Virus record (IMG/VR): IMGVR_UViG_2671180921_000027
Span: 1-26,168 of that record
Direction: 5' to 3' (one strand)
Source of the DNA: a virus
Taxonomy: Duplodnaviria; Heunggongvirae; Uroviricota; Caudoviricetes
Length of the DNA stretch: 26,168 bases
The position numbers were made by a program, and so were the translations under genes. Positions 15,049-25,929 of this stretch are shown here, piece by piece; the first letter of the stretch is position 1; each line of letters starts with the position of its first letter. Under the pieces are notes generated by a model, which was not told where the DNA came from, did no database searches, and saw only the letters and a list, made by a program, of their open reading frames with translations.

Positions 15049-15626
15049 GCGCTAATCCCCAGAATGTCCCGTTTGATGGTGTCAGCCGCACCGCCTGACA
15101 GACCGCCCGTTCTGACCAGCTCTTCGGTTTTTTCTGCCATCTCCTGCGCAAACGCATCGCGGATCGCTTTCTCGCGTTTATGGCTGGTCATGGCGGCCGC
15201 TTCCAGACGCTGGGCAACCAGCGCCAGTTGGCCCAGCGCCTTCGGTGCAACGGGCTTGTCGTCTTCTGCCATCGACATGGACGTTTCAAAGGCCAGCGTT
15301 TTTACAAACTCCATCAGCAGCTTGCCGACGTCTGACGTCGGCGCGGAACCCAGCTTTGCCGCCCAGACCTCGGCCATCTCGCGGGAGGCGCGGATTTTGG
15401 CCCCGACTTTTTCCATGCGGATGGCATAGCGGTTTAAGCCCGTCCGGCTTAACTGCATCTCTTCCGGCAGGTTGTGTTCGTCAATCAGGGCGTTGATGGC
15501 TTCGCGGATTTCTTCCTGCGTGTGCCGCTTTTCCCGCAGCATCTGATGCAACTGCTCCCGGATGCTGTCCGGGAGTAAATCCACTTTGGAAAGACGACCA
15601 CGGGTGGGGCGTTGTTCATTTTCCAT
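15045..15626 (-). CDS. Terminase small subunit-like protein (Mu gp27 position)
   Basis: ATG at 15626 with AGGAG RBS 7 nt upstream; ORF track extends to a GTG at 15647. Confidence 0.6.
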   Translation of the reverse strand: MENEQRPTRGRLSKVDLLPDSIREQLHQMLREKRHTQEEIREAINALIDEHNLPEEMQLSRTGLNRYAIRMEKVGAKIRASREMAEVWAAKLGSAPTSDVGKLLMEFVKTLAFETSMSMAEDDKPVAPKALGQLALVAQRLEAAAMTSHKREKAIRDAFAQEMAEKTEELVRTGGLSGGAADTIKRDILGISA

Positions 15627-15763
15627 GTGTGCGCTCCTGTTGCTCACTACGCTGTAAACTTTCGTATGCAGATTTCAGTGCGCCGTTCTGGATTTCCCGC
15701 CATGTCAGGTTATGCGCCAGACGGCGGAGTTCATCACGGGACGCTTTACTTATCGGATTCTTT

Positions 15764-16063
15764 TTACGGTTCACGACGGCCCCCGTCTTCAGTTCCCGGT
15801 GTTTTCAGACCGGCGTATATTTCTTCGCGAACGGAGCGGATATCCTTACCCAGCAGCTTCCACAGCCGCGCACATGCCGGTGATGAACGCAGGGCACGTT
15901 TCATGGGGGTATCCGGTGCATCCGGGTTCCAGGGCTTTCCGGTCTGTTGTTCATATGCACGGGCGATGGCGTTTTTCTCAATATCCGCGAGCACAAAACA
16001 GTACGCCAGCTGCCGCACGACGGCCCGTTCTCCGCGACTTAACGGCTTCAGTTTTCGCGCCAT
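15764..16063 (-). CDS. Hypothetical protein upstream of packaging genes
   Basis: 99-aa ORF; ATG at 16063; followed by a 137-bp non-coding gap. Confidence 0.45.
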   Translation of the reverse strand: MARKLKPLSRGERAVVRQLAYCFVLADIEKNAIARAYEQQTGKPWNPDAPDTPMKRALRSSPACARLWKLLGKDIRSVREEIYAGLKTPGTEDGGRREP

Positions 16064-16065
16064 GC

Positions 16066-16359
16066 TCAGTCCCTCGCACGGGGTTTTTTAACGCCCGGAA
16101 CGCTGGACAGGCCGTTTGCCACATCCTCGCCGCTGCCGGTGATTTCAGCCACGTAACAGCCGCCCACATCAGACAGACGAACCAGCCCCTGCTCGCGAAG
16201 CCATGCAAGCTGGGTGCGCACCACATCACGGGATACCTTATGACCGTAAGCCTGAAGGCAGGTCTGCAACACGGATTCATTCGCGCTGTCGCCACAGTCC
16301 AGCAGGGAACGCAGCAACACCAGACGACGGTCTTCAGTGAGGATCTCTTTCATCGCCAT
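16066..16359 (-). CDS. Hypothetical protein, possible winged-helix DNA-binding fold
   Basis: 97-aa ORF; TAATG junction at 16359. Confidence 0.45.
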   Translation of the reverse strand: MAMKEILTEDRRLVLLRSLLDCGDSANESVLQTCLQAYGHKVSRDVVRTQLAWLREQGLVRLSDVGGCYVAEITGSGEDVANGLSSVPGVKKPRARD

Positions 16360-16664
16360 TAATTTTTTTCCTTTAACTCGTTCTCTAATAACAAATCGCT
16401 GATGCGGGATACCTGGCGGATGGATGGCCCCAGCTCTTTGATTTCTCCCCGCAGGTTGCTGATATCCAGTTGCAGGCGGTGGAACTCATCACGATCAGGT
16501 AGCTGATGTACCTGGCTTTCCATCACCGACACGCGGGAACGCAGCAAATCAAACTCTTCGCGTTTGACGTAGGTCTTTGCCAGAATCAACTGAAGCAGGT
16601 TTATTCCTGTCATCAGCAATGCCCACAGAATGGGCCAGTTAGCTCTGATCATTTCCCAGGACAC
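16359..16664 (-). CDS. Membrane protein with N-terminal TM helix and coiled-coil tail (lysis accessory candidate)
   Basis: Hydrophobic WPILWALLMTGINLLQLILA near N-terminus; GTG start at 16664 with AGGAGG RBS 5 nt upstream. Confidence 0.5.
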   Translation of the reverse strand: MSWEMIRANWPILWALLMTGINLLQLILAKTYVKREEFDLLRSRVSVMESQVHQLPDRDEFHRLQLDISNLRGEIKELGPSIRQVSRISDLLLENELKEKN

Positions 16665-16876
16665 GTTTTCCTCCTGCGTTCCCGAATATGCTGACAGTCA
16701 ATACAGGTCACCACATCCGGCAGCGCCGCAAGGCGTTGTGCCGGAATAACGTTCCCACAGTCATTGCAGCAGCCCCGACTATGGGGCGCTTCTTTTGTCC
16801 GCGTCTGCCAGGCGTTAACGACGCTCTGACGTTCGTTCATAACCACTTCACTGATGCGGTCGATTTCGTCGGTCAT
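16649..16876 (-). CDS. TraR/DksA-family C4 zinc-finger protein
   Basis: 75 aa with CNDC...17 residues...CIDC; ATGA junction at 16876. Confidence 0.7.
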   Translation of the reverse strand: MTDEIDRISEVVMNERQSVVNAWQTRTKEAPHSRGCCNDCGNVIPAQRLAALPDVVTCIDCQHIRERRRKTCPGK

Positions 16877-17481
16877 TTCGGCCCCGCAGAGATTTTGTGA
16901 CGGCTCGATTTGCTGTACCGGGCAAAGCCGTCCATGGTTCTTACTCCGAGATAGCCCAGCGCCGGGGTAAGCAACATCAGCGTGATATCCCAGTCCGGTG
17001 ACGGCATATGCAGTGTGATACCTCTGGCACCGGCAATGGCTCCGGCAATCTGGCCACAGGAGAGCAACAGCACATAGGTCAGACTGCTGTAACAGGAAAG
17101 ACGGGCCAGCAGCGGGCGCGTCTGGCGCACATAGCTGTCCGCAGCGTTGTCACCATTGCGGATGGTTTCCTGCTGTTCGTGGTGTGCGGCCTGCTGGTCA
17201 GCCAGCACCAGCTTCTGCCGTTCCACCTCCAGCTGTTGCAGCTGAACTTTCAGGGTTTCCATCTGCATCAGTTGCTCCGGTGACAGCATCACCAGTTTTT
17301 GTTCCAGAATGCGTTGCTGTTCAGCCACCGGCAGGCTTTCCCGGACGCTTTCCACCATACCGGCCACCGAGTCAGCGGCGGCAGATGTGCTGCCACCAAA
17401 CCAGCGCCCGACGGAACGAATCAGCCCCGGCCCGGCTTTCAGCAGAACAGAGGCGATGCCTGAAAGGGTTAACGGATCCAC
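16873..17481 (-). CDS. Coiled-coil protein with two C-terminal hydrophobic segments
   Basis: GTG at 17481 preceded by GGAGG at 6-nt spacing; ORF-track upstream extension overlaps neighbouring gene and is rejected. Confidence 0.5.
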   Translation of the reverse strand: MDPLTLSGIASVLLKAGPGLIRSVGRWFGGSTSAAADSVAGMVESVRESLPVAEQQRILEQKLVMLSPEQLMQMETLKVQLQQLEVERQKLVLADQQAAHHEQQETIRNGDNAADSYVRQTRPLLARLSCYSSLTYVLLLSCGQIAGAIAGARGITLHMPSPDWDITLMLLTPALGYLGVRTMDGFARYSKSSRHKISAGPK

Positions 17482-17879
17482 GGGAAACCTCCATACAGAT
17501 AACGCTGAAGACAGAGCAGACCGCCGCAACTGCCACCACACAGCCAGAACACCGGATGCACCGGTGACATCATCATCAGCGTGCTGAAGACGCAGCAGAA
17601 ATATCCCAGCGCCCAGACCACCCATGACCACACGATGATGTGGCGACCAAAAGCCCGGTAACGGACCTCAGGCAGCAGGCGAAATGGCACATTCCCGAGG
17701 CTTGCGCTGTATGAAAACAACACCACCCCGGCAAAGGACAACAACATCAACACGAACGATCGCCAGCCACATAACATGCTGATGATGAACATGCAGAGTG
17801 TCAGTCCGGCCAGCGGCCATGGGGTTCTCATCAGTCGGGAACAAAGCAGCCAGTCACACAGTTTTAAAATTTTGTTCAT
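17469..17879 (-). CDS. Cys/Trp-rich multi-pass membrane protein (holin-like candidate)
   Basis: ATG at 17879; about four hydrophobic segments; first ~60 codons of the ORF-track entry look like out-of-frame overlap and are rejected. Confidence 0.45.
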   Translation of the reverse strand: MNKILKLCDWLLCSRLMRTPWPLAGLTLCMFIISMLCGWRSFVLMLLSFAGVVLFSYSASLGNVPFRLLPEVRYRAFGRHIIVWSWVVWALGYFCCVFSTLMMMSPVHPVFWLCGGSCGGLLCLQRYLYGGFPWIR

Positions 17880-18105
17880 TACCTTTTTCCACATTGAATT
17901 TTTCCCTGTACTTCTGGCACTGCCAGAAAATGTCCCGTGTATCCACGGAGTTCCAGCCACGCATGTAGTAGCTGGCGTGTGTGCCGTCATGACCGGTATA
18001 GTCCAGCGGTTTCGGGGGCGGACCTCCGGCCATGCGGTGCAGAACCTCCTGACGCAGGCGGTCACGCCGCCCGGCTTTCAGTGAGGCATCCCAGCCTTTA
18101 CCCAT
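17854..18105 (-). CDS. Small hypothetical protein translationally coupled to endolysin
   Basis: 83-aa ORF; ATG at 18105, 2 nt after endolysin stop; Trp/Tyr/Cys-containing, non-repetitive. Confidence 0.4.
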   Translation of the reverse strand: MGKGWDASLKAGRRDRLRQEVLHRMAGGPPPKPLDYTGHDGTHASYYMRGWNSVDTRDIFWQCQKYREKFNVEKGNEQNFKTV

Positions 18106-18106
18106 A

Positions 18107-18703
18107 TCACCCCCGCGTGGCGGACATGATGCCTAGAGGGGTATCGATGATTTCCAGACAGGCGTCGGTCAGCTTTTCCATGCGGTTAAACCAGCCGTTC
18201 AGGTATTTACCCTGGGCGGGTTTTGACTTGATGATGTCGGCATAAAAGCGGGAACGACGGACAATGCAGCGGGCCAGCAACCAGTCCGGGGTGGACAGAC
18301 TCACGGCCTTACGGGTACGTGGGCCGATGATGCCGTCAGCATCCACATCAGCGGCTTCCTGCAAAATTTTGATGGCTTTTTTAACGCCATGCTGAACCGC
18401 TGCATCGAACACAAACATCGCCACGCCATCAGGCCACTGGTCACATCCGGCAGGCAGCCAGTAATCGCGCCAGTAAATCTGCGCAACCTGTTCGCGGGTT
18501 AAATCCTTAATGCGGGTATCCGGTTTGCCGTCGCCGTTGACATCGGTTTTGCCGTCAATCACACCGTCGCGGCGGTCAGAAATGCCGTATTTGGTTTCGC
18601 CGCCACGGTCAGAGGGGTCATTGACATAGACGCCTTCGATATCGGGACGCAGAATGAAATTCAGCGCATGTTCAAAGGCCGGGGAGAGTTTTTGATTTTC
18701 CAT
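18107..18703 (-). CDS. Endolysin, GH108-type muramidase with C-terminal peptidoglycan-binding region
   Basis: GGETKYGIS motif near N-terminus; AGGTG RBS 5 nt upstream of ATG at 18703. Confidence 0.7.
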   Translation of the reverse strand: MENQKLSPAFEHALNFILRPDIEGVYVNDPSDRGGETKYGISDRRDGVIDGKTDVNGDGKPDTRIKDLTREQVAQIYWRDYWLPAGCDQWPDGVAMFVFDAAVQHGVKKAIKILQEAADVDADGIIGPRTRKAVSLSTPDWLLARCIVRRSRFYADIIKSKPAQGKYLNGWFNRMEKLTDACLEIIDTPLGIMSATRG

Positions 18704-18756
18704 AAAAGCACCTGTGAAGCAGATTTAAACGTGGTCTGCTTCATGGTGCCGGAGGC

Positions 18757-18784
18757 ATAAAAAAAGCCGGATTTACCGGCTTCA
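18757..18784 (-). terminator. Intrinsic terminator hairpin 4 nt after the Mor/C-family stop codon, copy 1
   Basis: Same 26-nt sequence as 11023..11048; 7-bp stem, 5-nt loop, U7 tract on minus transcript. Confidence 0.65.
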
Positions 18785-18788
18785 TTGA

Positions 18789-19238
18789 TTAAGGGCGGCG
18801 TGGCGGACGACGAACGGGGTGAGGCAGGTTCGGGGAGTGGTAGAACAAATCCGGCTGGTATTTATTACGCTCCAGACGTCGCATCCGTTTGATGGCCTTG
18901 TAGACGGTTTTATACGTCACTCCGTAACGCTGAACCAGTTCAGGAATATTATGGCCGTTAAAATCACGCCAGATACGCATATCCCGGACAAGATTCTCCA
19001 GAATATTCCCCCTCGGAACATAAACCTGCATCCCGCCGATATGGCGACAAATCGCCACAACCAGCTCAAGGGAATGGGCAGGGTCTGCGCCAATCCGGGC
19101 CAGCTCTTTACGCAGCAGTGCGTTCAGTTCAGAAAGTAACGCCGGATAAGCGGTGTTTTCCTGGTAATCGTTAAGGTATTCCAGAACGCTGTCGTCCCGA
19201 AGGTCTTCGAATAAATCCTGCTCTTTCATCTGTTTCAT
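18789..19238 (-). CDS. mor: Mor/C-family transcriptional activator
   Basis: 149-aa ORF; ATGA coupling to GemA-like gene; sequence resembles remembered Mor (FPALLxELNxLLRxEL...DPAHSLE..VAIC). Confidence 0.7.
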   Translation of the reverse strand: MKQMKEQDLFEDLRDDSVLEYLNDYQENTAYPALLSELNALLRKELARIGADPAHSLELVVAICRHIGGMQVYVPRGNILENLVRDMRIWRDFNGHNIPELVQRYGVTYKTVYKAIKRMRRLERNKYQPDLFYHSPNLPHPVRRPPRRP

Positions 19239-19786
19239 ACAGCAATTCTCCCGCTGTTTCGTGCGCGGGCATATGCACTGGTCAGTGCATCATATCCGCG
19301 CAGTTCCCGCCCGGATGGGCTTACAGGTAAAGGCACACCATGTCGGGCAAAGGCTTCCCGGATGCAGCGCATATGCCACTGTTTGAGCGTTTCGAGCACA
19401 ACCTGCAACGATTCCCCGTGACACCAGGCCAGTGTGGAAACACCCTGACCGCCATTACGTCTGGCCGTCAGGCGCTCAACGTATTTGTCCAGCGCGGCGT
19501 CGCTGGTATCGGAGACGAAACCATCAAGAAACATCTGTTGCCAGATTTTATAAATCTTCTCGCGCGGTGTGACATGCCCCTTAAAGCGACGGCGGGGATG
19601 TTTTTTCTGCTTCTTAAAACCGCGCTCTTTCATGGCATCGAGCACACGTTCCAGTTGTGCAACGGACAGCTCGCGGCAACTGGTCTTGCCCGTGCACTGC
19701 ACCAGAAAGGCGCGGTAAGTGTCATCGTCGAGTTGTAGATCACGACGGGCGACATGAATTAACTTAATAAGCGATGTGCGACTCAT
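19235..19786 (-). CDS. gemA: GemA-like protein (Mu gp16 family)
   Basis: Start refined to ATG 19786 with GAGAGGTGA RBS; LIKLIHVARRDLQLDDDTYRAFLVQCTGKTSC matches remembered GemA motif. Confidence 0.65.
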   Translation of the reverse strand: MSRTSLIKLIHVARRDLQLDDDTYRAFLVQCTGKTSCRELSVAQLERVLDAMKERGFKKQKKHPRRRFKGHVTPREKIYKIWQQMFLDGFVSDTSDAALDKYVERLTARRNGGQGVSTLAWCHGESLQVVLETLKQWHMRCIREAFARHGVPLPVSPSGRELRGYDALTSAYARARNSGRIAV

Positions 19787-19816: not shown

Positions 19817-20221
19817 ATGAAAATTGATTACGATGAACTGGCAAGAATCCTTGATACTTTTCTGAATGCAGACAGCGCATTTATTACCCTTAAGGATGTT
19901 GGAATCGACACAACCGACGATGAAGATAAACTGATATTTCATTTATTACTGCTCGTCGAAAATGGTCTTATCGGTAACAGAGAACTGCAAACTGGCACCC
20001 CGGAGTGCATCGGTCTGAAGTTCACCACAACAGGTATTGGCTGGCGAAACATACCAATAAGGCTGACTCAGGACGGACATGATTTTGCCAATGCATTGCA
20101 TCAAAAACCTATTCTTGAACGAATCAAAAAAGAATTTGCCGAAGCCCCGTTTGATGTTGTCAAAGACCTCGGCAAGGGGTTTTTAACTCAGTTATTTAAA
20201 AAGAAACTCGGTATTGAATAA
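19817..20221 (+). CDS. Hypothetical protein, possibly DUF2513-like; AT-rich opposite-strand gene
   Basis: 134-aa ORF, the only convincing plus-strand gene; ATG 19817 after AAGGAA; 22 G+C in first 60 nt by hand count; RLTQDGHDFANAL resembles a remembered DUF2513 motif (unverified). Confidence 0.6.
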   Translation: MKIDYDELARILDTFLNADSAFITLKDVGIDTTDDEDKLIFHLLLLVENGLIGNRELQTGTPECIGLKFTTTGIGWRNIPIRLTQDGHDFANALHQKPILERIKKEFAEAPFDVVKDLGKGFLTQLFKKKLGIE

Positions 20222-20494
20222 CTCCTTACTCATTCGCTGTAGCACATCAAGGGCGGCAACTGCTGCCACTTTATCCTGACCGGCAATGATTTTTCGTAAT
20301 TCCTCAATAATCCAGGCATGGCTTAATGATTCAGCAATCATCGTGCGCTTTTCTGAAATTAAATTTTCTCTGGCCTGCTCATAGTGCTGGTATACGACAT
20401 TATCCAGAAAATCATTTACATTTTGTTCTGGCATGCCACTGGAAATTAAGGTTGCAGCCATTAAATCAGCATCAGTAATCATCTGTATTTTCAT
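20192..20494 (-). CDS. Hypothetical protein, AT-rich, convergent with and overlapping 19817..20221 by 30 nt
   Basis: 100-aa ORF; GAGGAGGT RBS 9 nt upstream of ATG at 20494; 22 G+C in first 60 nt by hand count. Confidence 0.55.
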   Translation of the reverse strand: MKIQMITDADLMAATLISSGMPEQNVNDFLDNVVYQHYEQARENLISEKRTMIAESLSHAWIIEELRKIIAGQDKVAAVAALDVLQRMSKELFNTEFLFK

Positions 20495-20554
20495 TTCTTA
20501 ATACCTCCTCGCAATAAAAAACTTCATTCGGATGGCGTTTCTGCATGTGCTCCA

Positions 20555-20668
20555 TCACCTGCATACATGCCTGCTCTGTGGGCCAGATTTTTCTGTCACC
20601 GGAATGGCATCACAGGCATCATTCCCACAGGTGCCAACCAGCAGGACAAAGCCAATTGACTTAATCAC
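20555..20668 (-). CDS. Candidate small ORF (37 aa) with hydrophobic N-terminus and near-lipobox LVGTC
   Basis: Hand translation MIKSIGFVLLVGTCGNDACDAIPVTEKSGPQSRHVCR from GTG 20668 with GGAG 7 nt upstream; below ORF-track size cut-off. Confidence 0.2.
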   Translation of the reverse strand: MIKSIGFVLLVGTCGNDACDAIPVTEKSGPQSRHVCR

Positions 20669-20945
20669 CGTTCGTCTCCATTTGTTCCAGGCGCTGCGCT
20701 TCGCGCATACACAGCTGCGCAATCATCATCTGGCGGGTAATGCCTGCACGAATAAACGAAGCTGCACGACGGAGATTTTTTGCATTCGCCTGTTGAATCA
20801 ATGCAGGCACTGATGCCAGACATTCGGCGCTGTCTTTAATCAGCGTTGCTGCTGTTATTTCTGTTTTTTGTCGTTCACTCTTTGTGGTCATAAACATCAC
20901 CATTTCAGATTCAGGCGCGAGCAATCCCCTGACGCATCGCGCCAT
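20661..20945 (-). CDS. Hypothetical early protein; start uncertain (possibly ATG at 20891)
   Basis: 94-aa ORF without RBS at first ATG; internal ATG with GGTGA upstream. Confidence 0.45.
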   Translation of the reverse strand: MARCVRGLLAPESEMVMFMTTKSERQKTEITAATLIKDSAECLASVPALIQQANAKNLRRAASFIRAGITRQMMIAQLCMREAQRLEQMETNGD

Positions 20946-20985
20946 AATTAAAAGAAAGTGAATTAATTAAATATTCGTAGTGGTA

Positions 20986-21510
20986 TTAAATACCGGCTTC
21001 CTGTTCAAACGGAATAATGGAAAAATCTTCAATTCCAGACTTAACTGTAATTCCGGCAACACCTGCTACCGCTTTCGGTTCCAGTAAAATTGCTTCCTTG
21101 TTGATTTCCTGTTTCGTGCGAATAAAGCGTTGCAGACCAAGACGCTCCAGCGTTTCCATCACCGCATCCACACCGCGAATACTTACCGATGGTGGGCGCT
21201 GACGCCATGACACATCGCCGGTTACCAGGTTCGCCGTCTTCACCTTGCCGCCGTTCGTCAGTTCGTCACGGTTCGCTTCACACCATCCCTGAACGCCTTT
21301 TGAAAGGGTTTCAATACTGGTTTTAAGCGGCGCAATCTGTGAGGCGTATTTCTCAGTAATTTCAGCGATAGCGTCATTCATTTCCGTTTCAAGTCGTGCT
21401 GCTTCGCGTTGCAGGTCCCCAATCCGGCGGATATCACATACCACGGCATCGCGGGATTGCGGAACATAAGCCGCTGCGGCGTTCTTGATTCGTTTTGCTG
21501 GTTTAGCCAT
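20986..21510 (-). CDS. gam: Gam-like host-nuclease inhibitor (Mu Gam family)
   Basis: 174 aa, MAKPAKRIK...RIGDLQREA...; length and sequence closely match remembered Mu Gam. Confidence 0.8.
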   Translation of the reverse strand: MAKPAKRIKNAAAAYVPQSRDAVVCDIRRIGDLQREAARLETEMNDAIAEITEKYASQIAPLKTSIETLSKGVQGWCEANRDELTNGGKVKTANLVTGDVSWRQRPPSVSIRGVDAVMETLERLGLQRFIRTKQEINKEAILLEPKAVAGVAGITVKSGIEDFSIIPFEQEAGI

Positions 21511-21530
21511 ATAAATAAAGCTCCTGTTAA

Positions 21531-21830
21531 TTAATATTCGCTGTATACAATGCTGGATACAGCACGATTGCTTAATTCCATCTTTTGGGCAATGACATGA
21601 ATAGCCAGCCCTTCTTTATAAAGTTCACGACACAAATATTTGTCGTGCTCACTGACCCGGTATGCACACAACGATATTCCGTGTCTTCTGGCATGTGCCT
21701 GTAGGGCGGTTGGGGCAACGTTCAGTTTCTTCGCCATTTCTTCGACGGTCATTTTCCCGACGCTGGCTTCGATAAATTCCCGGTCTTCGCGTGACCAGCG
21801 TTTACGCTTACACATCATTCCGGTCACCAC
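21531..21830 (-). CDS. Small DNA-binding protein with two helix-turn-helix-like segments; start uncertain
   Basis: WSREDREFIE...MTVEEMAKKLNVAPTALQAHARRHGI plus a second similar segment. Confidence 0.45.
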   Translation of the reverse strand: MVTGMMCKRKRWSREDREFIEASVGKMTVEEMAKKLNVAPTALQAHARRHGISLCAYRVSEHDKYLCRELYKEGLAIHVIAQKMELSNRAVSSIVYSEY

Positions 21831-22250
21831 TCAGTACAACAGGGGGTCGCGCAGTGATGCCGGAATATGCCGCAGCGATAACTGAACCGCTTTCAGGGCA
21901 AGGGAAGAATACGTCCCCTGCGTCCAGCCTTTAGCCATTCGCCGGTAATCGCGCCAGATGTTCTGCCACTGCTCCCGTGCGTCCGGGTCTGACGCGCTGA
22001 TGTATTCACGGTCCATGACGTATTCCCATAAATCCACATTGAAGGCATTGCCAAACGTAATGGCGCGGAATACCGCCTCCCCGCAATAACGCGCACAAAT
22101 GCTGTAATGGTCAAATGCAATCAGGTAAGTCTTTTCGCCATACCCCTCAACTTCGCGCGCGCAAATAAATTCGCGCAAGTCTCCACCATTGCTATTACGC
22201 TCTTTAATCCGAATTAATGCCTGGATTTCGTTTCTGATTCTGGCGTTCAT
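21831..22250 (-). CDS. Hypothetical early protein (139 aa)
   Basis: AAGGAA RBS 8 nt upstream of ATG 22250; no family recognised. Confidence 0.5.
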   Translation of the reverse strand: MNARIRNEIQALIRIKERNSNGGDLREFICAREVEGYGEKTYLIAFDHYSICARYCGEAVFRAITFGNAFNVDLWEYVMDREYISASDPDAREQWQNIWRDYRRMAKGWTQGTYSSLALKAVQLSLRHIPASLRDPLLY

Positions 22251-22270
22251 TGTCAGCGTTCCTTTGTGAA

Positions 22271-22540
22271 TTAATGTTTGGCTGCATCCGGGTTATACCG
22301 GAATAACTCGCCTTCGACTTCCAGCCCAAGTTCTCTGGCTGACTTCAACAACTCCTGGGTTGCTTTTTCAATAATTTCAGGAGCCATGCTCTTGATAATG
22401 CCTGCCATCACGTCATGCGGTCCGATTTGCTCCTTAGGAGACTGTTCTTCCAGTTGCACACTCATTCCTACAAAGAAACCTCCTTTTTTCTGAAACTCAA
22501 CATCTTCCATGCGGTTAAATTCAAAGATTACTTTTGCCAT
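22271..22540 (-). CDS. Hypothetical early protein (89 aa from refined start)
   Basis: ATG 22540 with GAGGAA RBS; ORF-track N-extension rejected. Confidence 0.45.
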   Translation of the reverse strand: MAKVIFEFNRMEDVEFQKKGGFFVGMSVQLEEQSPKEQIGPHDVMAGIIKSMAPEIIEKATQELLKSARELGLEVEGELFRYNPDAAKH

Positions 22541-22572
22541 TTTGTTATTCCTCACAAATAAATAAGCCGTTA

Positions 22573-22800
22573 TTAACGCCAGATAATCTGGCAACCATTA
22601 AGACGGGCCGTCCATACTGAACGGGCAACCCCTGATTTATGCTCCATAATCCTGACAGCGTTTCTGACCAGCTCCGGCGGTGGGCAGGTGATTTCAAGCA
22701 CCGGGCGGGCCACGCCCAGCCATGATTCGTTGACGTGACTGCCGCGCTCCTGTAACCAGGTCTTTACTTCCGTCGCCATTTTGATATTACGAGACATCAT
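22573..22800 (-). CDS. Small early protein in the Kil position, immediately after the MuB-type gene
   Basis: 75-aa ORF; AAGGAA RBS; positional analogy only. Confidence 0.4.
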
Positions 22801-22812
22801 GGTTTGTGTTCC

Positions 22813-23766
22813 TTACTGCCAGTTCAGTAACTTAGGGTTGCTGTAAGCCTCCTTAAAAGCCGCTTTAATGTGACTTTTATTCAGGGATGAACCAGCACCT
22901 TTCGCCGCCAGCCACGCATGATTCAGTGTGTGAGTTAATACACGCAATCCCCCGGGCTTTTCGGCTACCCTCATCAACAGGTCCAGCTCATCTTCCTGTG
23001 TTACTCCCCATGCTTTGGCTACAGCCATCACGTCGGTTTTTTTCACTTTGCGCAGTTGTTTCGTCATGGCAAAACGGCTGAACAGACGGGCCAGCTCATC
23101 AGTCCCACGACGGGTGGCATCCGCCATCTGTTTCGGGTTGCCAATTAAAACCATCCCCACGCCAGTGGCATCCTGAATGGCGCGTAATTGCTCCAGACCA
23201 TCCACACTTAAGTGATCAGCTTCATCAATAATCAGCAGGGGGTTAACACGGCCACTAATTTCTTTACCACCGCCCAGTTTTCTGCGAATGGCGCGGGTTA
23301 TATTCCCCTTATTTCTTCCCGGATTATTAATTTCCAGCGCATATGCTATTTCAAGGAGACATTCCGTAACGCTCGAATGTGCCGGAGCAAGCGTCACCAT
23401 CCAGGCATTAGCTGTTTTGCGGCAATATTCCCGTGCAGCAAAAGTTTTGCCGACACCCGGTACGCCAACAACAACACTAATAATCCCGAGTGAGCGCACT
23501 GTTTTAAACAGCTCATGCAAATCACAAAATGTCTGGGTCTTCACAACGCCGGGGGCACCTGACAAATTCTGCCCTTTTTGCCAGACCCGATACCATTCCT
23601 GTAATTTGTCATGCATGCCTTCAACATTGCCTCTGTACTTTCCTTTACGAAGATCAGAAAGTGTTGCCGGAGACATTCCGGCCTCATCAGCAATATCTTC
23701 CTGGGACTTGTCGCCCTCGTTAATCAAAGCGTTAATAGTGTTGAAAACATCATCAATATCAGTCAT
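22813..23766 (-). CDS. B: MuB-type transposition target-capture ATPase
   Basis: 317 aa; Walker A GVPGVGKT; N-terminal HTH-like segment; GGAGGAG RBS 5 nt upstream of ATG 23766. Confidence 0.85.
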   Translation of the reverse strand: MTDIDDVFNTINALINEGDKSQEDIADEAGMSPATLSDLRKGKYRGNVEGMHDKLQEWYRVWQKGQNLSGAPGVVKTQTFCDLHELFKTVRSLGIISVVVGVPGVGKTFAAREYCRKTANAWMVTLAPAHSSVTECLLEIAYALEINNPGRNKGNITRAIRRKLGGGKEISGRVNPLLIIDEADHLSVDGLEQLRAIQDATGVGMVLIGNPKQMADATRRGTDELARLFSRFAMTKQLRKVKKTDVMAVAKAWGVTQEDELDLLMRVAEKPGGLRVLTHTLNHAWLAAKGAGSSLNKSHIKAAFKEAYSNPKLLNWQ

Positions 23767-23810
23767 AGTATCTCCTCCATCATTACAGATTTACTTTATT
23801 TTCCTTGTTT

Positions 23811-23839
23811 AACAGTCCGTTACCGCGGACTGTTTTTTT
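23811..23839 (+). terminator. Hairpin AACAGTCCG-TTACCG-CGGACTGTT followed by T-run, between transposase and MuB-type genes
   Basis: Perfect 9-bp stem read directly; T-tract on plus strand, A-tract on the coding (minus) strand. Confidence 0.4.
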
Positions 23840-23841
23840 AT

Positions 23842-25929
23842 TCAGGCCAGCGGATCATCTTCTTCCTGCATGGCAAAAAGCTTTTGCATCCCCAGTCTGA
23901 AATCGCGTTCAAATTCTTCGTCATGCTCTTCTTCATATTCCGGTTGCTGAACTGCCACCACATTCCCAACCGGGCGATAAACATTATCCAGCCAGGGTTC
24001 AGCTTGTTTGTGCTCCAGAATCTGAATACCTTCATCTTCAGCATCACGAATTTTTTCCTCAGCGCGTTTGCGCATTCCTTTAATACGCTGTTGCTGTTTG
24101 TGATATTCCGCACTGACAGGGAAGGCTGCGCGTTTATTGCCGTTCCATATCGCCTCACAGATAAAGCTGCCGTCCTTGCGACGTACCGTAATTCGCTCGG
24201 CGTCATGAATGTCATAACTGATAAGCACTTTGCGACCGTGTTCGTCACGCAACTCCGGCGCGTAGTAAATATTGTTCAGCCACTGGATTTCGCAGCGTCT
24301 TACTGGACGCTCCACCATCGGGCGGAACATGTCGCGCAGCTCAAGATCACTCAGCCACTCAATTTCGGTGTCTTCTTCTGCCAGGCGTTTTTTTCTGAAC
24401 TCTGCCGGGCTGTAATGCCGCCCGTTCGGTTTCATCGGCAGCTCAGAATGAGGGCGGTTGTTGTACCATTCCACGCCTTCACGAATAGCCTCAATAAGCT
24501 CCGCCCACGATGGCAGCTCGCGCATTGCCGCTTTCTGGCGGTCGTTCAGAGGCTTGTCCTGTTGCATGGCGTTAAACGCTGAACGCAGATCACGGTTAAG
24601 TACACGCAACGATTCCCGGTCAGCACCCTTGCCAAAATAGGTGCGATACCTCCTGGCTATACGCATCGGCAGTGTCCGGTTCAGGCGTTCAATAATGCCG
24701 CGCCCCTGTGGATTACCGGCAATACCTGTTGGGTGTTTAATCCCCAGGCGGGGCAGAATACCCACGACCTCTTTGTCCAGCATGTCAGCCGTTTCACCAG
24801 AACCGTTATCCGAGTAATACAGAAACGGTTTTCCGTGGTTGCGAATGCCGTGCTGTATCGCACCGGCAACGGCGAACACGTTCTCGGCAAGGTCAAGACT
24901 CCAGCCAACAACAAACCGGGTTCCACCGTCGATCACAAATGTGACTTCCGGTGAGAATGGACGCCCGTGGATCGGATGTGCACATTTCAGCTTCATACCG
25001 TGACCGTCACCAATCCAGACATAATTCACCGGCATAGCTGTCCAGGCGCGGCGGGTGAATCCTTCAAGCTGACGGTATTCACTGCCGGTAACGCGCCCTT
25101 TTTGTTTCACCACTTCCGGCAGTTTTTTCATGGCATACCGGACAACATCATAGGAAGGCATCACCTCCAGCATGTACGGTTCGTCCGCATGACGACGCTG
25201 CCATTCCGCGACAAAATCCTCGTAGGCTTCAGACATAGGTCTGCCGTTCACCTGGCGATACTGCGCCAGAAACTCAGGTAGCCAGCTAATTTGTTCCGGT
25301 TTTATTTCGTCGCGTTTTCCTGGTGCCAGTAACAGCAGCCGTTCTGCGGCATTCTGTGACTGGTTGTATTTCAGCACCCACTGATAAAGCGGGTCACGAC
25401 TGATGGTGCGATTAGCGCCACGTTTTGCATTGGCGTTAACTGCGGCCTGTTGCAGGCGTTCCGGTAGTTCACCTTTACGGGCTTTTTCGACAAGATAGTT
25501 AATGGCTTTCAGCCGCCCGAGATTACCGTCGCTTTCCAGCTTCAGCACTTCCACCACCAGCGCAGCCCTTGCTTCAGATACCCGACGCTGATTTTCGGTC
25601 AGCGCATTCAGGCGTTCTTCCATCAGTTGTGGCGAACCGCGATATGCTTCGATTGCCTGGACAGCATCAGGATTACGCGCCTTCCTGGTAACGACCTGAA
25701 CTTCGGAAACGTTGTTCTCCGTAGCTACCAGTTGTTCCACATAACGTTCACGCAGCGCCTTTTGAGTCGCTTCCGGCAGACAATCAATGTGGTACTCAAT
25801 GGCTTTTGTACCTGCTCGTTTGCGTCGAAAATGCTCTGATGAGGCCAATTTTTTTATAGTGTACCTCACACCTTGCGCACTTCCCGGCATACCAGGCAGC
25901 CCCACGAGTTCGTTGACAGACACAAACAT
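23842..25929 (-). CDS. A: MuA-type DDE transposase
   Basis: 695 aa; candidate catalytic residues in VWIGDGH, YYSDNGSGE and GIIERLNRT; directly follows ner. Confidence 0.9.
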   Translation of the reverse strand: MFVSVNELVGLPGMPGSAQGVRYTIKKLASSEHFRRKRAGTKAIEYHIDCLPEATQKALRERYVEQLVATENNVSEVQVVTRKARNPDAVQAIEAYRGSPQLMEERLNALTENQRRVSEARAALVVEVLKLESDGNLGRLKAINYLVEKARKGELPERLQQAAVNANAKRGANRTISRDPLYQWVLKYNQSQNAAERLLLLAPGKRDEIKPEQISWLPEFLAQYRQVNGRPMSEAYEDFVAEWQRRHADEPYMLEVMPSYDVVRYAMKKLPEVVKQKGRVTGSEYRQLEGFTRRAWTAMPVNYVWIGDGHGMKLKCAHPIHGRPFSPEVTFVIDGGTRFVVGWSLDLAENVFAVAGAIQHGIRNHGKPFLYYSDNGSGETADMLDKEVVGILPRLGIKHPTGIAGNPQGRGIIERLNRTLPMRIARRYRTYFGKGADRESLRVLNRDLRSAFNAMQQDKPLNDRQKAAMRELPSWAELIEAIREGVEWYNNRPHSELPMKPNGRHYSPAEFRKKRLAEEDTEIEWLSDLELRDMFRPMVERPVRRCEIQWLNNIYYAPELRDEHGRKVLISYDIHDAERITVRRKDGSFICEAIWNGNKRAAFPVSAEYHKQQQRIKGMRKRAEEKIRDAEDEGIQILEHKQAEPWLDNVYRPVGNVVAVQQPEYEEEHDEEFERDFRLGMQKLFAMQEEDDPLA

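What the first reader, a model, noticed from the sequence alone, without database searches (positions are those of the whole stretch)
16359..18703. Lysis cassette lacks an obvious holin/spanin pair
The endolysin is GH108-type with a peptidoglycan-binding region and an Asp/Gly-rich insertion (DGVIDGKTDVNGDGKPD) after the GGETKYGIS motif. It is followed by an 83-aa soluble-looking ORF coupled 2 nt after its stop, a Cys/Trp-rich multi-pass membrane protein, a 202-aa coiled-coil protein with two C-terminal hydrophobic segments, a TraR-like zinc finger, and a 101-aa protein with one N-terminal TM helix plus coiled coil. I see no canonical lipoprotein outer-membrane spanin. Lysis may use a non-canonical arrangement.
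Basis: partly seen in the sequence, partly recalled or inferred. Interest (0 to 1): 0.45.

Follow-up and report, generated by a model that had tools for sequence, protein, structure and literature searches.

The report
Mu-like prophage lysis genes, spanin missing
The lysis genes of this Mu-like E. coli prophage do include a recognisable holin (a relative of the gene-transfer-agent / ICP1 TeaA "3TM" holins) and a relative of the Mu gp25 releasin, but no gene for breaking the outer membrane can be found, which puts it among the already known "spanin-less" phages.

Summary
On the minus strand, tightly coupled genes encode a soluble GH108 + PG_binding_3 muramidase, an 83-aa soluble protein, a 136-aa four-pass membrane protein, a 202-aa helical protein with two C-terminal membrane segments, a TraR zinc finger and a 101-aa protein with an N-terminal membrane helix.

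- **Holin found.** The 202-aa protein belongs to the GTA_holin_3TM / ICP1 TeaA holin superfamily. Evidence: family-level Pfam hits, a 91-pLDDT model whose best viral match is "Holin of 3TMs", and a sister lineage that carries a small two-pass holin in the same slot.
- **DUF2730.** The 101-aa protein belongs to DUF2730, the family of the Mu gp25 releasin.
- **Mu gene 18.** The 83-aa protein is the orthologue of Mu middle gene 18 (69% identity).
- **No spanin.** None was found in the window, in a 97.8%-identical region of a full-length related E. coli prophage, in two related phage genome records, or beside 80 related viral loci. The same scan recovers Mu gp23.1.

Best reading: a holin-dependent soluble-endolysin cassette, with DUF2730 as an accessory of unknown role and no dedicated outer-membrane gene identified. 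About 15% of phages lack spanins, and DUF2730 paired with GH108 endolysins is already published. Interest is moderate.

The parts
18789..19238 (-). Mor-family transcription activator, the gene just upstream of the cassette
   Evidence: Pfam Mor 104.6 bits. PGAP names it 'Mor transcription activator family protein' in the near-identical prophage.
18763..18783 (-). Terminator-like hairpin with a T run directly after the Mor stop codon. The endolysin therefore probably heads its own activator-dependent operon; the promoter in 18704-18762 is inferred, not detected.
   Evidence: 8-pair stem (5 G-C) plus TTTTAT. No sigma-70-like promoter was found in 15500-19400, as expected for activator-dependent Mu promoters (inference).
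18107..18703 (-). Soluble GH108 muramidase endolysin with a PG_binding_3 domain and an Asp/Gly-rich loop insertion (residues about 43-62)
   Evidence: Pfam GH108 84.5 bits and PG_binding_3 62.7 bits. phrog_315 'endolysin' 1.3e-54. No hydrophobic segment. Aligns to PDB 2IKB with the loop as extra residues. The loop gives only a weak FG-GAP / EF-hand-like match.
17854..18105 (-). orf83, the orthologue of phage Mu middle gene 18. A small soluble three-helix protein of unknown function, always immediately upstream of the holin slot.
   Evidence: 69% identity to Mu gp18, E=5e-38. tblastn hits to Mu, D108 and SfMu gene 18. All homologues carry the precomputed domain PF26867. AlphaFold2 pLDDT 79, three helices, no significant fold match. 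Present in 41 of the 85 viral and phage loci searched; the junction with the orf202 gene overlaps or leaves at most 3 nt wherever no gene is inserted.
17469..17879 (-). orf136, a lineage-specific, fast-evolving four-pass inner-membrane protein (predicted N-in/C-in) inserted between gene 18 and the holin. Role unknown; possibly a holin modulator or a moron.
   Evidence: Hydrophobic segments. phrog_12596, unknown function. Divergent 109-136-aa counterparts, most ending in WIR, occur only in enterobacterial relatives. No Pfam or NCBIfam hit. Homology to Mu gp19 is not supported.
16873..17481 (-). orf202, the proposed holin. It has a weakly hydrophobic N-terminal helix, a helical domain of about 100 residues predicted to be cytoplasmic, and two C-terminal transmembrane helices. 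It is a relative of the GTA_holin_3TM / TeaA family.
   Evidence: PF11351 E=1.2e-3, below the cut-off. 21 of 75 family representatives hit PF11351, and one homologue scores above the cut-off. hhalign to ICP1 TeaA gives 75% probability over the N-terminus. AlphaFold2 pLDDT 91.3. Best BFVD match is 'Holin of 3TMs', E=9e-8. Family charge and hydropathy profile. Sits beside endolysins in unrelated phages.
16649..16876 (-). TraR/DksA-type C4 zinc-finger protein, a conserved member of the block. Probably not a lysis protein.
   Evidence: zf-dskA_traR 41 bits. TIGR02419 61.8 bits, above its cut-off. Follows the orf202 gene in 53 of the 85 loci searched.
16359..16664 (-). DUF2730 protein (family of the Mu gp25 releasin): an N-terminal transmembrane helix with a C-terminal coiled coil predicted to be cytoplasmic
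   Evidence: PF10805 105.6 bits over the full length. 27% identity to Mu-type gp25 and 39% to the Vibrio phage homologue. Hydrophobic helix at residues 10-30, with Lys/Arg after it.
16066..16359 (-). Orthologue of Mu gp26 (VpaChn25_0724 family). Marks the downstream end of the conserved block before the terminase genes.
   Evidence: NF050184 122 bits. 61% identity to Mu gp26.

Best explanation
This is the late-operon lysis cassette of a Mu-like transposable prophage of E. coli, and it works as a holin-dependent system.

**Proposed mechanism.**
- The GH108 muramidase has no export signal and accumulates in the cytoplasm.
- orf202, a three-segment membrane protein of the GTA / ICP1-TeaA '3TM holin' superfamily, accumulates in the inner membrane. 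At a set time it permeabilises the membrane and lets the enzyme reach the cell wall.
- The DUF2730 protein, tethered to the membrane and facing the cytoplasm, is a relative of the Mu gp25 releasin. Here it most likely modulates the holin or the membrane rather than releasing a membrane-anchored endolysin, because this endolysin has no anchor.
- orf83 (Mu gene 18 orthologue), orf136 and TraR are accessory or unrelated.
- No spanin is encoded. The outer-membrane step is either left to mechanical rupture or carried out by a factor not yet recognised.

**Shown here:** family memberships, predicted topologies, synteny, and absence of lipoprotein or spanin ORFs.

**Inferred:** holin activity of orf202, the role of DUF2730, and the way the outer membrane is breached.
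For: **Context.**
- The window is a Mu-like prophage: Mor, Mu gp27, DUF2730 and gp26 homologues, and a terminase.
- It is 97.8% identical over the cassette region to a prophage of E. coli KFu019 of about 33 kb that carries transposase, Gam, Com and Mom genes.

**Endolysin.**
- GH108 + PG_binding_3 with no hydrophobic segment, so a holin is needed.

**orf202 as holin.**
- Weak direct PF11351 hit.
- 21 of 75 representatives of its family hit PF11351, best E=8e-9.
- A homologue in a non-Mu phage scores 32.2 bits against a cut-off of 24.8.
- hhalign to ICP1 TeaA gives 75% probability.
- Confident all-helical model, pLDDT 91.3; the best match among viral models is 'Holin of 3TMs, for gene-transfer release', E=9e-8, probability 1.0.
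- TeaA collapses the proton-motive force and is triggered by DNP (bioRxiv 10.1101/790493).
- Homologues sit directly beside endolysins of at least three other enzyme types in unrelated phages.
- In the sister lineage L109/L111/L113 the same slot (GH108, gene-18-like, X, TraR, DUF2730, gp26) holds a 73-aa two-pass protein that matches phrog_34682 'holin'.

**Topology.**
- Conserved Arg before the second hydrophobic segment, acidic residues in the short loop, and an Arg/Lys-rich tail.

**DUF2730.**
- Full-length Pfam hit.
- Chamblee et al. list GH108/DUF2730 pairs in plaque-forming Vibrio Mu-like phages, and state that the role of DUF2730 with endolysins lacking SAR domains is open (PMC9239132).

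**No spanin.**
- Searches found none.
- Positive controls recovered the Mu-type o-spanin.
Against: - The window protein itself does not reach the Pfam gathering score for GTA_holin_3TM. It scores 19.8 bits against 24.8 as the 252-aa ORF, and gives no hit at E<=1e-3 as the 202-aa protein.
- The alignment to TeaA covers only the N-terminal 57 columns.
- Several non-Mu phages have another small membrane protein upstream of the endolysin in addition to the orf202 homologue. One is annotated 'holin protein III' and one resembles class II holins. In those phages the orf202 relative occupies the position where a spanin normally sits and need not be the primary holin.
- orf136 is an alternative membrane protein in the cassette.
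- No experiment exists for any member of this subfamily.
- Absence of a spanin is negative evidence from a rule-based scan.
Confidence: 0.6

Rival explanations
1. orf136, the four-pass membrane protein, is the true holin (or a co-holin), and orf202 is an antiholin, regulator or structural accessory.
For: - orf136 is a small polytopic membrane protein inside the cassette, translationally coupled on both sides.
- It evolves fast, as holins do.
- Some non-Mu phages pair orf202 relatives with another holin-like protein.
Against: - orf136-like genes exist only in part of the enterobacterial branch. One enterobacterial relative (L016) and all Vibrio, Shewanella and other relatives lack any gene in that slot, yet keep a soluble endolysin and orf202. 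These include the Vibrio phages listed as sequenced from plaques.
- No holin family matches orf136.
Confidence: 0.12
2. The cassette contains an unrecognised outer-membrane-disrupting factor that replaces the spanin. Candidates are the gene-18 protein (orf83), the DUF2730 protein, or a property of the 3TM holin itself.
For: - Relatives with the same cassette and no spanin anywhere in their genome records include Vibrio phages listed as sequenced from plaques.
- orf83 is cationic (15 Lys/Arg against 10 Asp/Glu) and always travels with the holin slot.
- Non-spanin solutions are known, such as the phiKT disruptin (bioRxiv 10.1101/515445).
- No credible o-spanin was found beside any of the 80 orf202-family loci.
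Against: - The orf83 orthologue is present in Mu, which has its own spanin. A Mu plasmid construct lacking genes 18-21 was still the basis of the lysis assays (PMC9239132).
- orf83 folds as an ordinary three-helix protein with no export signal.
- All soluble domains of orf202 and DUF2730 are predicted to be cytoplasmic.
- The control set of GH108 loci without orf202 also rarely showed lipoproteins (7 of 59), so the absence is not specific to this family.
Confidence: 0.2
3. The cassette is a decayed remnant in a cryptic prophage and no longer supports lysis, so the missing spanin is simply gene loss.
For: - Mu itself carries genes 18 and 19 as apparently dispensable middle genes (PMC9239132).
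- One related E. coli copy has a pseudogene in the neighbouring gp16-family (GemA-like) gene.
Against: - All ORFs are intact and tightly coupled.
- The element is full length in E. coli KFu019 and occurs in up to 4 places per genome, which suggests active transposition.
- The same gene order without a spanin is conserved from Vibrio to Klebsiella, including phages listed as sequenced from plaques.
Confidence: 0.05

Closest known systems
Phage Mu lysis region (lys gp22, spanin gp23/23.1, gp24, releasin gp25, gp26) and Mu middle genes 18-20 (Chamblee et al. 2022, PMC9239132)
   Same: - Same genomic frame: a Mor-family activator upstream and gp26, gp27 and the terminase downstream.
- Orthologues of gene 18 (69% identity) and gp26 (61%), and a DUF2730 protein (27%), in the same order.
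   Different: - Mu has a membrane-anchored SAR lysozyme of the PF00959 type, a two-component spanin, a second activator (C) and no holin.
- This element has a soluble GH108 enzyme, a 3TM-holin relative, no spanin and only one Mor-family activator annotated in the full-length related prophage.
- Where this element has orf202, Mu has gp20, C, lys and Rz/Rz1.
GTA_holin_3TM family (PF11351): Rhodobacter capsulatus gene-transfer-agent holin and Vibrio phage ICP1 TeaA
   Same: - Size of about 180-200 aa.
- A weakly hydrophobic N-terminus with an FGG motif, a long helical middle and two C-terminal membrane helices.
- Adjacency to an endolysin.
- Family-level sequence and fold similarity.
   Different: - The window protein is below the Pfam cut-off, so it belongs to a peripheral subfamily with its own invariant YVRxTRP motif.
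- It is embedded in a Mu-like block with TraR and DUF2730.
- No experimental data exist.
Vibrio Mu-like myophages (1.028.O and relatives, Martha 12B12) and Shewanella MuM16-2
   Same: - Most carry the same cassette: GH108 endolysin, gene-18-like protein, orf202 homologue (38% identity), TraR, DUF2730, gp26 homologue, and no spanin.
- The exception is Martha 12B12, where synteny points to a different soluble enzyme, weakly similar to an L,D-transpeptidase, as the endolysin.
- The GH108/DUF2730 pairing is listed in Table S1 of PMC9239132.
   Different: - They lack the inserted four-pass membrane gene (orf136) and the Asp/Gly-rich loop in the endolysin.
- They carry an extra secreted-protein gene between Mor and the endolysin.
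Spanin-less phages and the phiKT disruptin gp28
   Same: No identifiable i/o-spanin or u-spanin despite a Gram-negative host.
   Different: No small, strongly cationic amphipathic peptide comparable to gp28 is evident. The only small soluble protein (orf83) is shared with Mu, which does encode spanins.

Membership tests
GTA_holin_3TM / TeaA-type holins (PF11351) | Sequence match to the Pfam model at or above its gathering score | tested here: inconclusive
   The window protein scores 19.8 bits against a cut-off of 24.8 as the 252-aa ORF, and gives no hit at E<=1e-3 as the 202-aa protein. However, 21 of 75 representatives of its family hit the model (best E=8.4e-9), and the L061 homologue scores 32.2 bits.
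GTA_holin_3TM / TeaA-type holins (PF11351) | Three hydrophobic segments: a weakly hydrophobic N-terminal one and two near the C-terminus, separated by a long helical region | tested here: met
   The family hydropathy profile shows segments at about 1-25, 130-148 and 162-177. The AlphaFold2 model is all-helical with pLDDT 91.3.
GTA_holin_3TM / TeaA-type holins (PF11351) | Fold similarity to annotated family members | tested here: met
   Foldseek against BFVD: the best match is 'Holin of 3TMs, for gene-transfer release', E=9.2e-8, probability 1.0, 197 aligned columns. Another annotated member is at rank 4.
GTA_holin_3TM / TeaA-type holins (PF11351) | Encoded next to an endolysin gene | tested here: met
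   Two genes downstream of the GH108 gene here. Directly adjacent to GH108, M15/VanY-type and LD-endopeptidase genes in other phages.
GTA_holin_3TM / TeaA-type holins (PF11351) | Holin activity: lethal membrane permeabilisation, triggered by energy poisons, that releases endolysin | not testable with these tools
   Shown only for ICP1 TeaA (bioRxiv 10.1101/790493).
DUF2730 / Mu gp25 releasin | Full-length match to PF10805, including the N-terminal membrane helix | tested here: met
   105.6 bits, residues 4-98 against model positions 1-102 of 102. 27% identity to Mu-type gp25.
DUF2730 / Mu gp25 releasin | Located within five genes downstream of the endolysin in a transposable phage | tested here: met
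   Fifth gene after the endolysin. The element has Mor and Mu gp27 here, and transposase and Mom in the full-length relative.
DUF2730 / Mu gp25 releasin | Partner endolysin is a SAR (signal-anchor-release) enzyme whose release depends on the releasin | tested here: not met
   The endolysin has no hydrophobic N-terminal segment. PMC9239132 notes that such pairings exist and that their function is unknown.
Two-component spanin (Rz/Rz1 type) | o-spanin: a small lipoprotein (lipobox signal, usually Pro-rich) that is embedded in, overlapping or adjacent to the i-spanin gene | tested here: not met
   An all-frame lipobox scan found none in the window, the full-length related prophage, the Vibrio and Klebsiella phage genome records or 80 related loci. 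The same scan finds Mu-type gp23.1.
Two-component spanin (Rz/Rz1 type) | i-spanin: an N-in/C-out membrane anchor with a periplasmic coiled coil | tested here: not met
   The only protein with an N-terminal anchor plus a coiled coil is the DUF2730 protein. Its Lys/Arg residues follow the helix, which predicts a cytoplasmic coiled coil. This agrees with the topology reported for the family (PMC9239132). The orientation is predicted, not measured.
Unimolecular spanin (T1 gp11 type) | N-terminal lipoprotein signal and a C-terminal membrane anchor in one protein long enough to span the periplasm | tested here: not met
   An in-frame internal GTG in orf202 would give MRQTRPLLARLSCYSSLTYVLLLSC... followed by one membrane helix. 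However, only about 20 residues would lie between the two, and the Cys is absent from the Klebsiella homologue.
GH108 endolysins | Glyco_hydro_108 catalytic domain plus PG_binding_3, above the Pfam cut-offs | tested here: met
   84.5 bits and 62.7 bits. Homologous to the solved GH108-type proteins 2IKB, 2IS5 and 7DNP.

The most novel reading that the evidence does not exclude
This whole lineage of Mu-like phages breaches the outer membrane without any spanin, using a component of the conserved block (gene 18 protein, 3TM holin, TraR, DUF2730) that has not been recognised as an outer-membrane disruptor. The lineage includes Vibrio relatives listed as sequenced from plaques. A linked possibility is that DUF2730 proteins have a general lysis-control function on holins, of which the Mu 'releasin' activity is a derived special case.
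Probability: 0.2. Interest if true: 0.6.

Novelty: new variant of a known kind. Interest (0 to 1): 0.35.

Why it matters
Mu is the textbook "holin-less" phage, and the role of DUF2730 proteins in phages whose endolysins lack SAR domains was left open by the paper that defined the releasin.

This E. coli prophage offers a tractable host for three experiments:
- testing what a DUF2730 protein does when a holin and a soluble endolysin are present;
- testing whether the 3TM-holin relatives of Mu-like phages are real holins;
- testing how a spanin-less cassette gets through the outer membrane.

The comparison also suggests how the Mu arrangement arose. Genes 18 and 26 and DUF2730 are shared. The Mu block gp20, C, SAR lysozyme and Rz/Rz1 sits where this element has its holin.

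Practically, the result corrects "hypothetical protein" annotations for a gene present in many enterobacterial, Vibrio and Shewanella prophages.

Tried and rejected
1. **phrog_2121 as a fusion family.** Its 284 positions match orf83, orf136 and orf202, which suggested fused proteins. I found no fused ORF in any locus. The PHROG looks like a heterogeneous cluster, so it was not used as evidence.
2. **Internal in-frame start with a lipobox in orf202 as a u-spanin**. Rejected: the Cys is not conserved and the periplasmic span would be too short.
3. **orf136 as a homologue of Mu gp19.** They share only a CGWR motif. BLASTP gives E=0.011 and hhalign 6.7% probability. They are positional analogues at most.
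4. **A 77-aa protein upstream of the orf202 homologue in L061 as a DUF2730 relative.** hhalign gives 3.5% probability. Rejected.
5. **Spanin absence as specific to 3TM-holin cassettes.** In a control set of 80 GH108 loci, only 7 of 59 loci without orf202 had any nearby lipoprotein. The low baseline and the relatedness of the loci do not allow that claim.
6. **Fold search for orf83** gave no match with E<=0.001.
   - The afdb50 library was unavailable.
   - tblastn of orf136 against phage records found nothing, although a divergent counterpart exists in Kp4866-3.
   - The first attempt to scan viral contigs with the 75-sequence alignment failed for lack of a conserved stretch.
8. **Literature searches** found no description of this cassette in E. 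coli.


Full report
**What the window is.** All genes in 13.5-19.3 kb run on the minus strand.
- They encode a GemA-like protein, a Mor-family activator, the cassette in question, a Mu gp27-type small terminase protein and a large terminase.
- The 3.3-kb stretch 16000-19300 is 97.8% identical to a prophage of E. coli KFu019, and 54 of 5,426 complete E. coli genomes hold a match, with up to four places per genome.
- In KFu019 the element is about 33 kb. It has a repressor, transposase, AAA ATPase, Gam, head and contractile-tail genes, Com and Mom, and lies between ygbI and ltnD.
- It is therefore a Mu-like transposable prophage, only distantly related at the DNA level to Mu itself.

**Observation check.**
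- Endolysin (18107-18703): Glyco_hydro_108 plus PG_binding_3, with no hydrophobic segment.
- Its Asp/Gly-rich stretch is a true loop insertion relative to the solved GH108 protein 2IKB and to the Vibrio and Shewanella orthologues.
- orf83 starts one nucleotide after the endolysin stop codon. All following genes overlap or abut.
- orf136 has 9 Cys, 8 Trp and 3-4 hydrophobic segments.
- orf202 starts at a GTG behind GGAGG and has two C-terminal hydrophobic segments.
- The next two genes are a TraR zinc finger and a protein with an N-terminal membrane helix and a coiled coil.
- A terminator-like hairpin sits directly after the Mor gene (18783-18763), so the endolysin probably opens its own activator-dependent operon.

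**The holin.** Homology finds one.
- The long version of the orf202 ORF gives a sub-threshold hit to Pfam GTA_holin_3TM, E=1.2e-3.
- An exhaustive search of 1.8 billion representatives found 129 relatives, mostly 170-210 aa.
- In an alignment of 75 of them, R122, P123 and R181 are invariant within a conserved YVRxTRP motif. Twenty-one of the 75 hit GTA_holin_3TM on their own, best E=8.4e-9.
- One homologue from a non-Mu viral contig scores above the Pfam cut-off.
- The family profile aligns with the N-terminus of ICP1 TeaA at 75% probability.
- The AlphaFold2 model is confident (pLDDT 91.3) and all-helical. Its best match among predicted viral structures is "Holin of 3TMs, for gene-transfer release", E=9e-8, probability 1.0.
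- TeaA collapses the proton-motive force and is triggered by DNP (bioRxiv 10.1101/790493).
- The family hydropathy and charge profile shows a weakly hydrophobic N-terminal segment, a polar helical domain of about 100 residues that ends in conserved arginines, a membrane helix, a short acidic loop, a second membrane helix and a basic tail.
- By the positive-inside rule the long helical domain and the tail are cytoplasmic. That fits a holin and does not fit a periplasm-spanning protein.

**Comparative anatomy.** I fetched 80 viral contigs that encode orf202 relatives.
- About 50 are Mu-like. Wherever the contig extends far enough, they carry orf202, TraR, DUF2730, the gp26 homologue, gp27 and the terminase in that order.
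- Upstream, most have an orf83 homologue whose junction with the orf202 gene overlaps or leaves at most 3 nt.
- Only 30 of the 85 loci searched showed a GH108 endolysin.
- Only enterobacterial members have an extra gene between orf83 and orf202. It always encodes a four-pass membrane protein of 109-136 aa. These proteins are highly divergent and most end in WIR.
- orf136 is therefore a lineage-specific, fast-evolving insert and not a core component.
- In a sister Mu-like lineage (L109, L111, L113) the order is GH108, gene-18-like, a 73-aa two-pass protein, TraR, DUF2730, gp26. The two-pass protein matches a PHROG annotated as holin, E=3.6e-5.
- The orf202 position is thus a holin slot that different holin types can fill.
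- In non-Mu phages, orf202 relatives lie directly beside endolysins of several enzyme classes.
- Some of those phages also have another small membrane protein upstream of the endolysin; one is annotated "holin protein III" and one weakly resembles class II holins. This leaves room for the rival view that orf202 relatives are not always the primary holin.

**Relation to Mu.**
- orf83 is the orthologue of Mu middle gene 18 (69% identity). All its relatives carry the precomputed domain PF26867 and no functional name.
- The VpaChn25_0724-family protein is the orthologue of Mu gp26 (61% identity).
- The DUF2730 protein is 27% identical to Mu-type gp25.
- Mu order: Mor, 18, 19, 20, C, lys, 23/23.1, 24, 25, 26, 27.
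- Order here: Mor, GH108, 18, orf136, orf202, TraR, DUF2730, 26.
- Mu therefore has gp20, the second activator C, a SAR lysozyme and the spanin where this element has its holin.
- Yersinia Muvirus phages keep an orthologous GH108 gene (74% identity, with the same Asp/Gly loop) and gene 18 in the middle operon, in addition to the Mu-type lysozyme and spanin.
- Homology between orf136 and Mu gp19 could not be shown.

**The spanin.**
- An all-frame scan for lipoprotein signals found nothing credible in the window or in the full-length related prophage.
- It also found nothing in the genome records of Vibrio phage 1.028.O and Klebsiella phage Kp4866-3, or within 3 kb of the orf202 gene in the 80 viral loci.
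- The same scan recovered the Mu-type o-spanin gp23.1 in Mu, in a Yersinia Muvirus and in two viral contigs.
- On the coding strand only three proteins have membrane segments: orf136, orf202 and DUF2730. The soluble parts of all three are predicted to be cytoplasmic.
- The absence of a canonical spanin is therefore a conserved property of this lineage, which includes Vibrio members listed as sequenced from plaques.
- I could not show that the absence is specific to 3TM-holin cassettes. In a control set of GH108 loci without orf202, only 7 of 59 had a nearby lipoprotein.

**Mechanism proposed.**
- The soluble GH108 enzyme accumulates in the cytoplasm.
- orf202 acts as the holin that releases it.
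- The DUF2730 protein, whose Mu relative frees a membrane-anchored endolysin, cannot act that way here. It most likely modulates the holin or the membrane.
- Chamblee et al. explicitly left the role of DUF2730 with endolysins lacking SAR domains open, and listed GH108/DUF2730 pairs in Vibrio phages (PMC9239132).
- orf83 is a soluble three-helix protein with no fold match. Its Mu orthologue lies in a region (genes 18-21) that was deleted from the Mu construct used for lysis assays, so a direct role in envelope disruption is unlikely.
- How the outer membrane is breached remains unknown.

**Verdict.**
The cassette has a recognisable, though unusual and unannotated, holin and a releasin-family protein, but no spanin.
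- Spanin-less phages are a known class, reported as about 15% of phages (bioRxiv 10.1101/515445), and the GH108/DUF2730 pairing is published.
- This is therefore a new variant of known kinds rather than a new system. Its main value is as an E. coli model for the open questions about DUF2730 and spanin-independent lysis.

Noticed in passing
window 17854-18105 (-); Mu NC_000929 9248-9466 (L091 1249-1467): The 83-aa ORF is the orthologue of phage Mu middle gene 18 (69% identity). The family carries the precomputed domain PF26867 and has no known function. It is widespread in Mu-like prophages of Enterobacterales, Vibrio, Aeromonas, Shewanella and Alteromonadales.
   Followed up: yes
L001 3535-4318 (Yersinia phage vB_YpM_5); L093 3995-4778: Yersinia Muvirus phages carry a GH108 muramidase gene (74% identical to the window's, with the same Asp/Gly loop) plus gene 18 between Mor and C. 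They also have the Mu-type SAR lysozyme and spanin, so one phage has two muramidases.
   Followed up: partly
window 18521-18580 (-), endolysin residues about 42-61: The inserted loop DRRDGVIDGKTDVNGDGKPD resembles DxDxDG calcium-binding loops. On the isolated peptide the FG-GAP match is E=0.022 and the EF-hand match E=1.8, both far below threshold. It is shared with the Klebsiella and Yersinia orthologues, and a similar loop occurs in L109-L113. Calcium-dependent activity is a speculation.
   Followed up: partly
L109 4817-5092, L111 4625-5086, L113 4778-5086: A sister Mu-like lineage has a two-pass protein of about 73 aa (phrog_34682 'holin', E=3.6e-5) exactly where this element has orf202, between a gene-18-like gene and TraR.
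   Followed up: yes
window 18763-18783 (-): A strong terminator-like hairpin lies immediately after the Mor stop codon, leaving about 60 nt before the endolysin start for a presumably Mor-dependent promoter. No sigma-70-like promoter was detected in 15500-19400.
   Followed up: partly
window 19817-20221 (+) and about 20000-24000: G+C content falls from about 0.58 to 0.44-0.47. A 134-aa ORF lies on the strand opposite to the phage genes. It may be an acquired accessory gene (moron) in the early region.
   Followed up: no
L003 3306-3803 (E. coli RM9088); L004 1122-1571; L007 1139-1591: Some relatives carry an extra gene between Mor and the endolysin. In the Vibrio and Shewanella phages it encodes a protein of about 150 aa with a cleavable-looking signal peptide and no lipobox. 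The window has no gene there.
   Followed up: no
L041 5733-5909, L045 2507-2740, L072 5730-5963: A few Mu-like viral contigs have a small lipoprotein gene (58-77 aa, MKK..LLGGC, not Pro-rich) between the gp26 homologue and gp27. It does not look like an o-spanin and may be a moron.
   Followed up: no
E. coli genomes: The element occurs in up to four places in a single E. coli genome (for example STEC388) and once on a plasmid. This is consistent with recent transposition.
   Followed up: no
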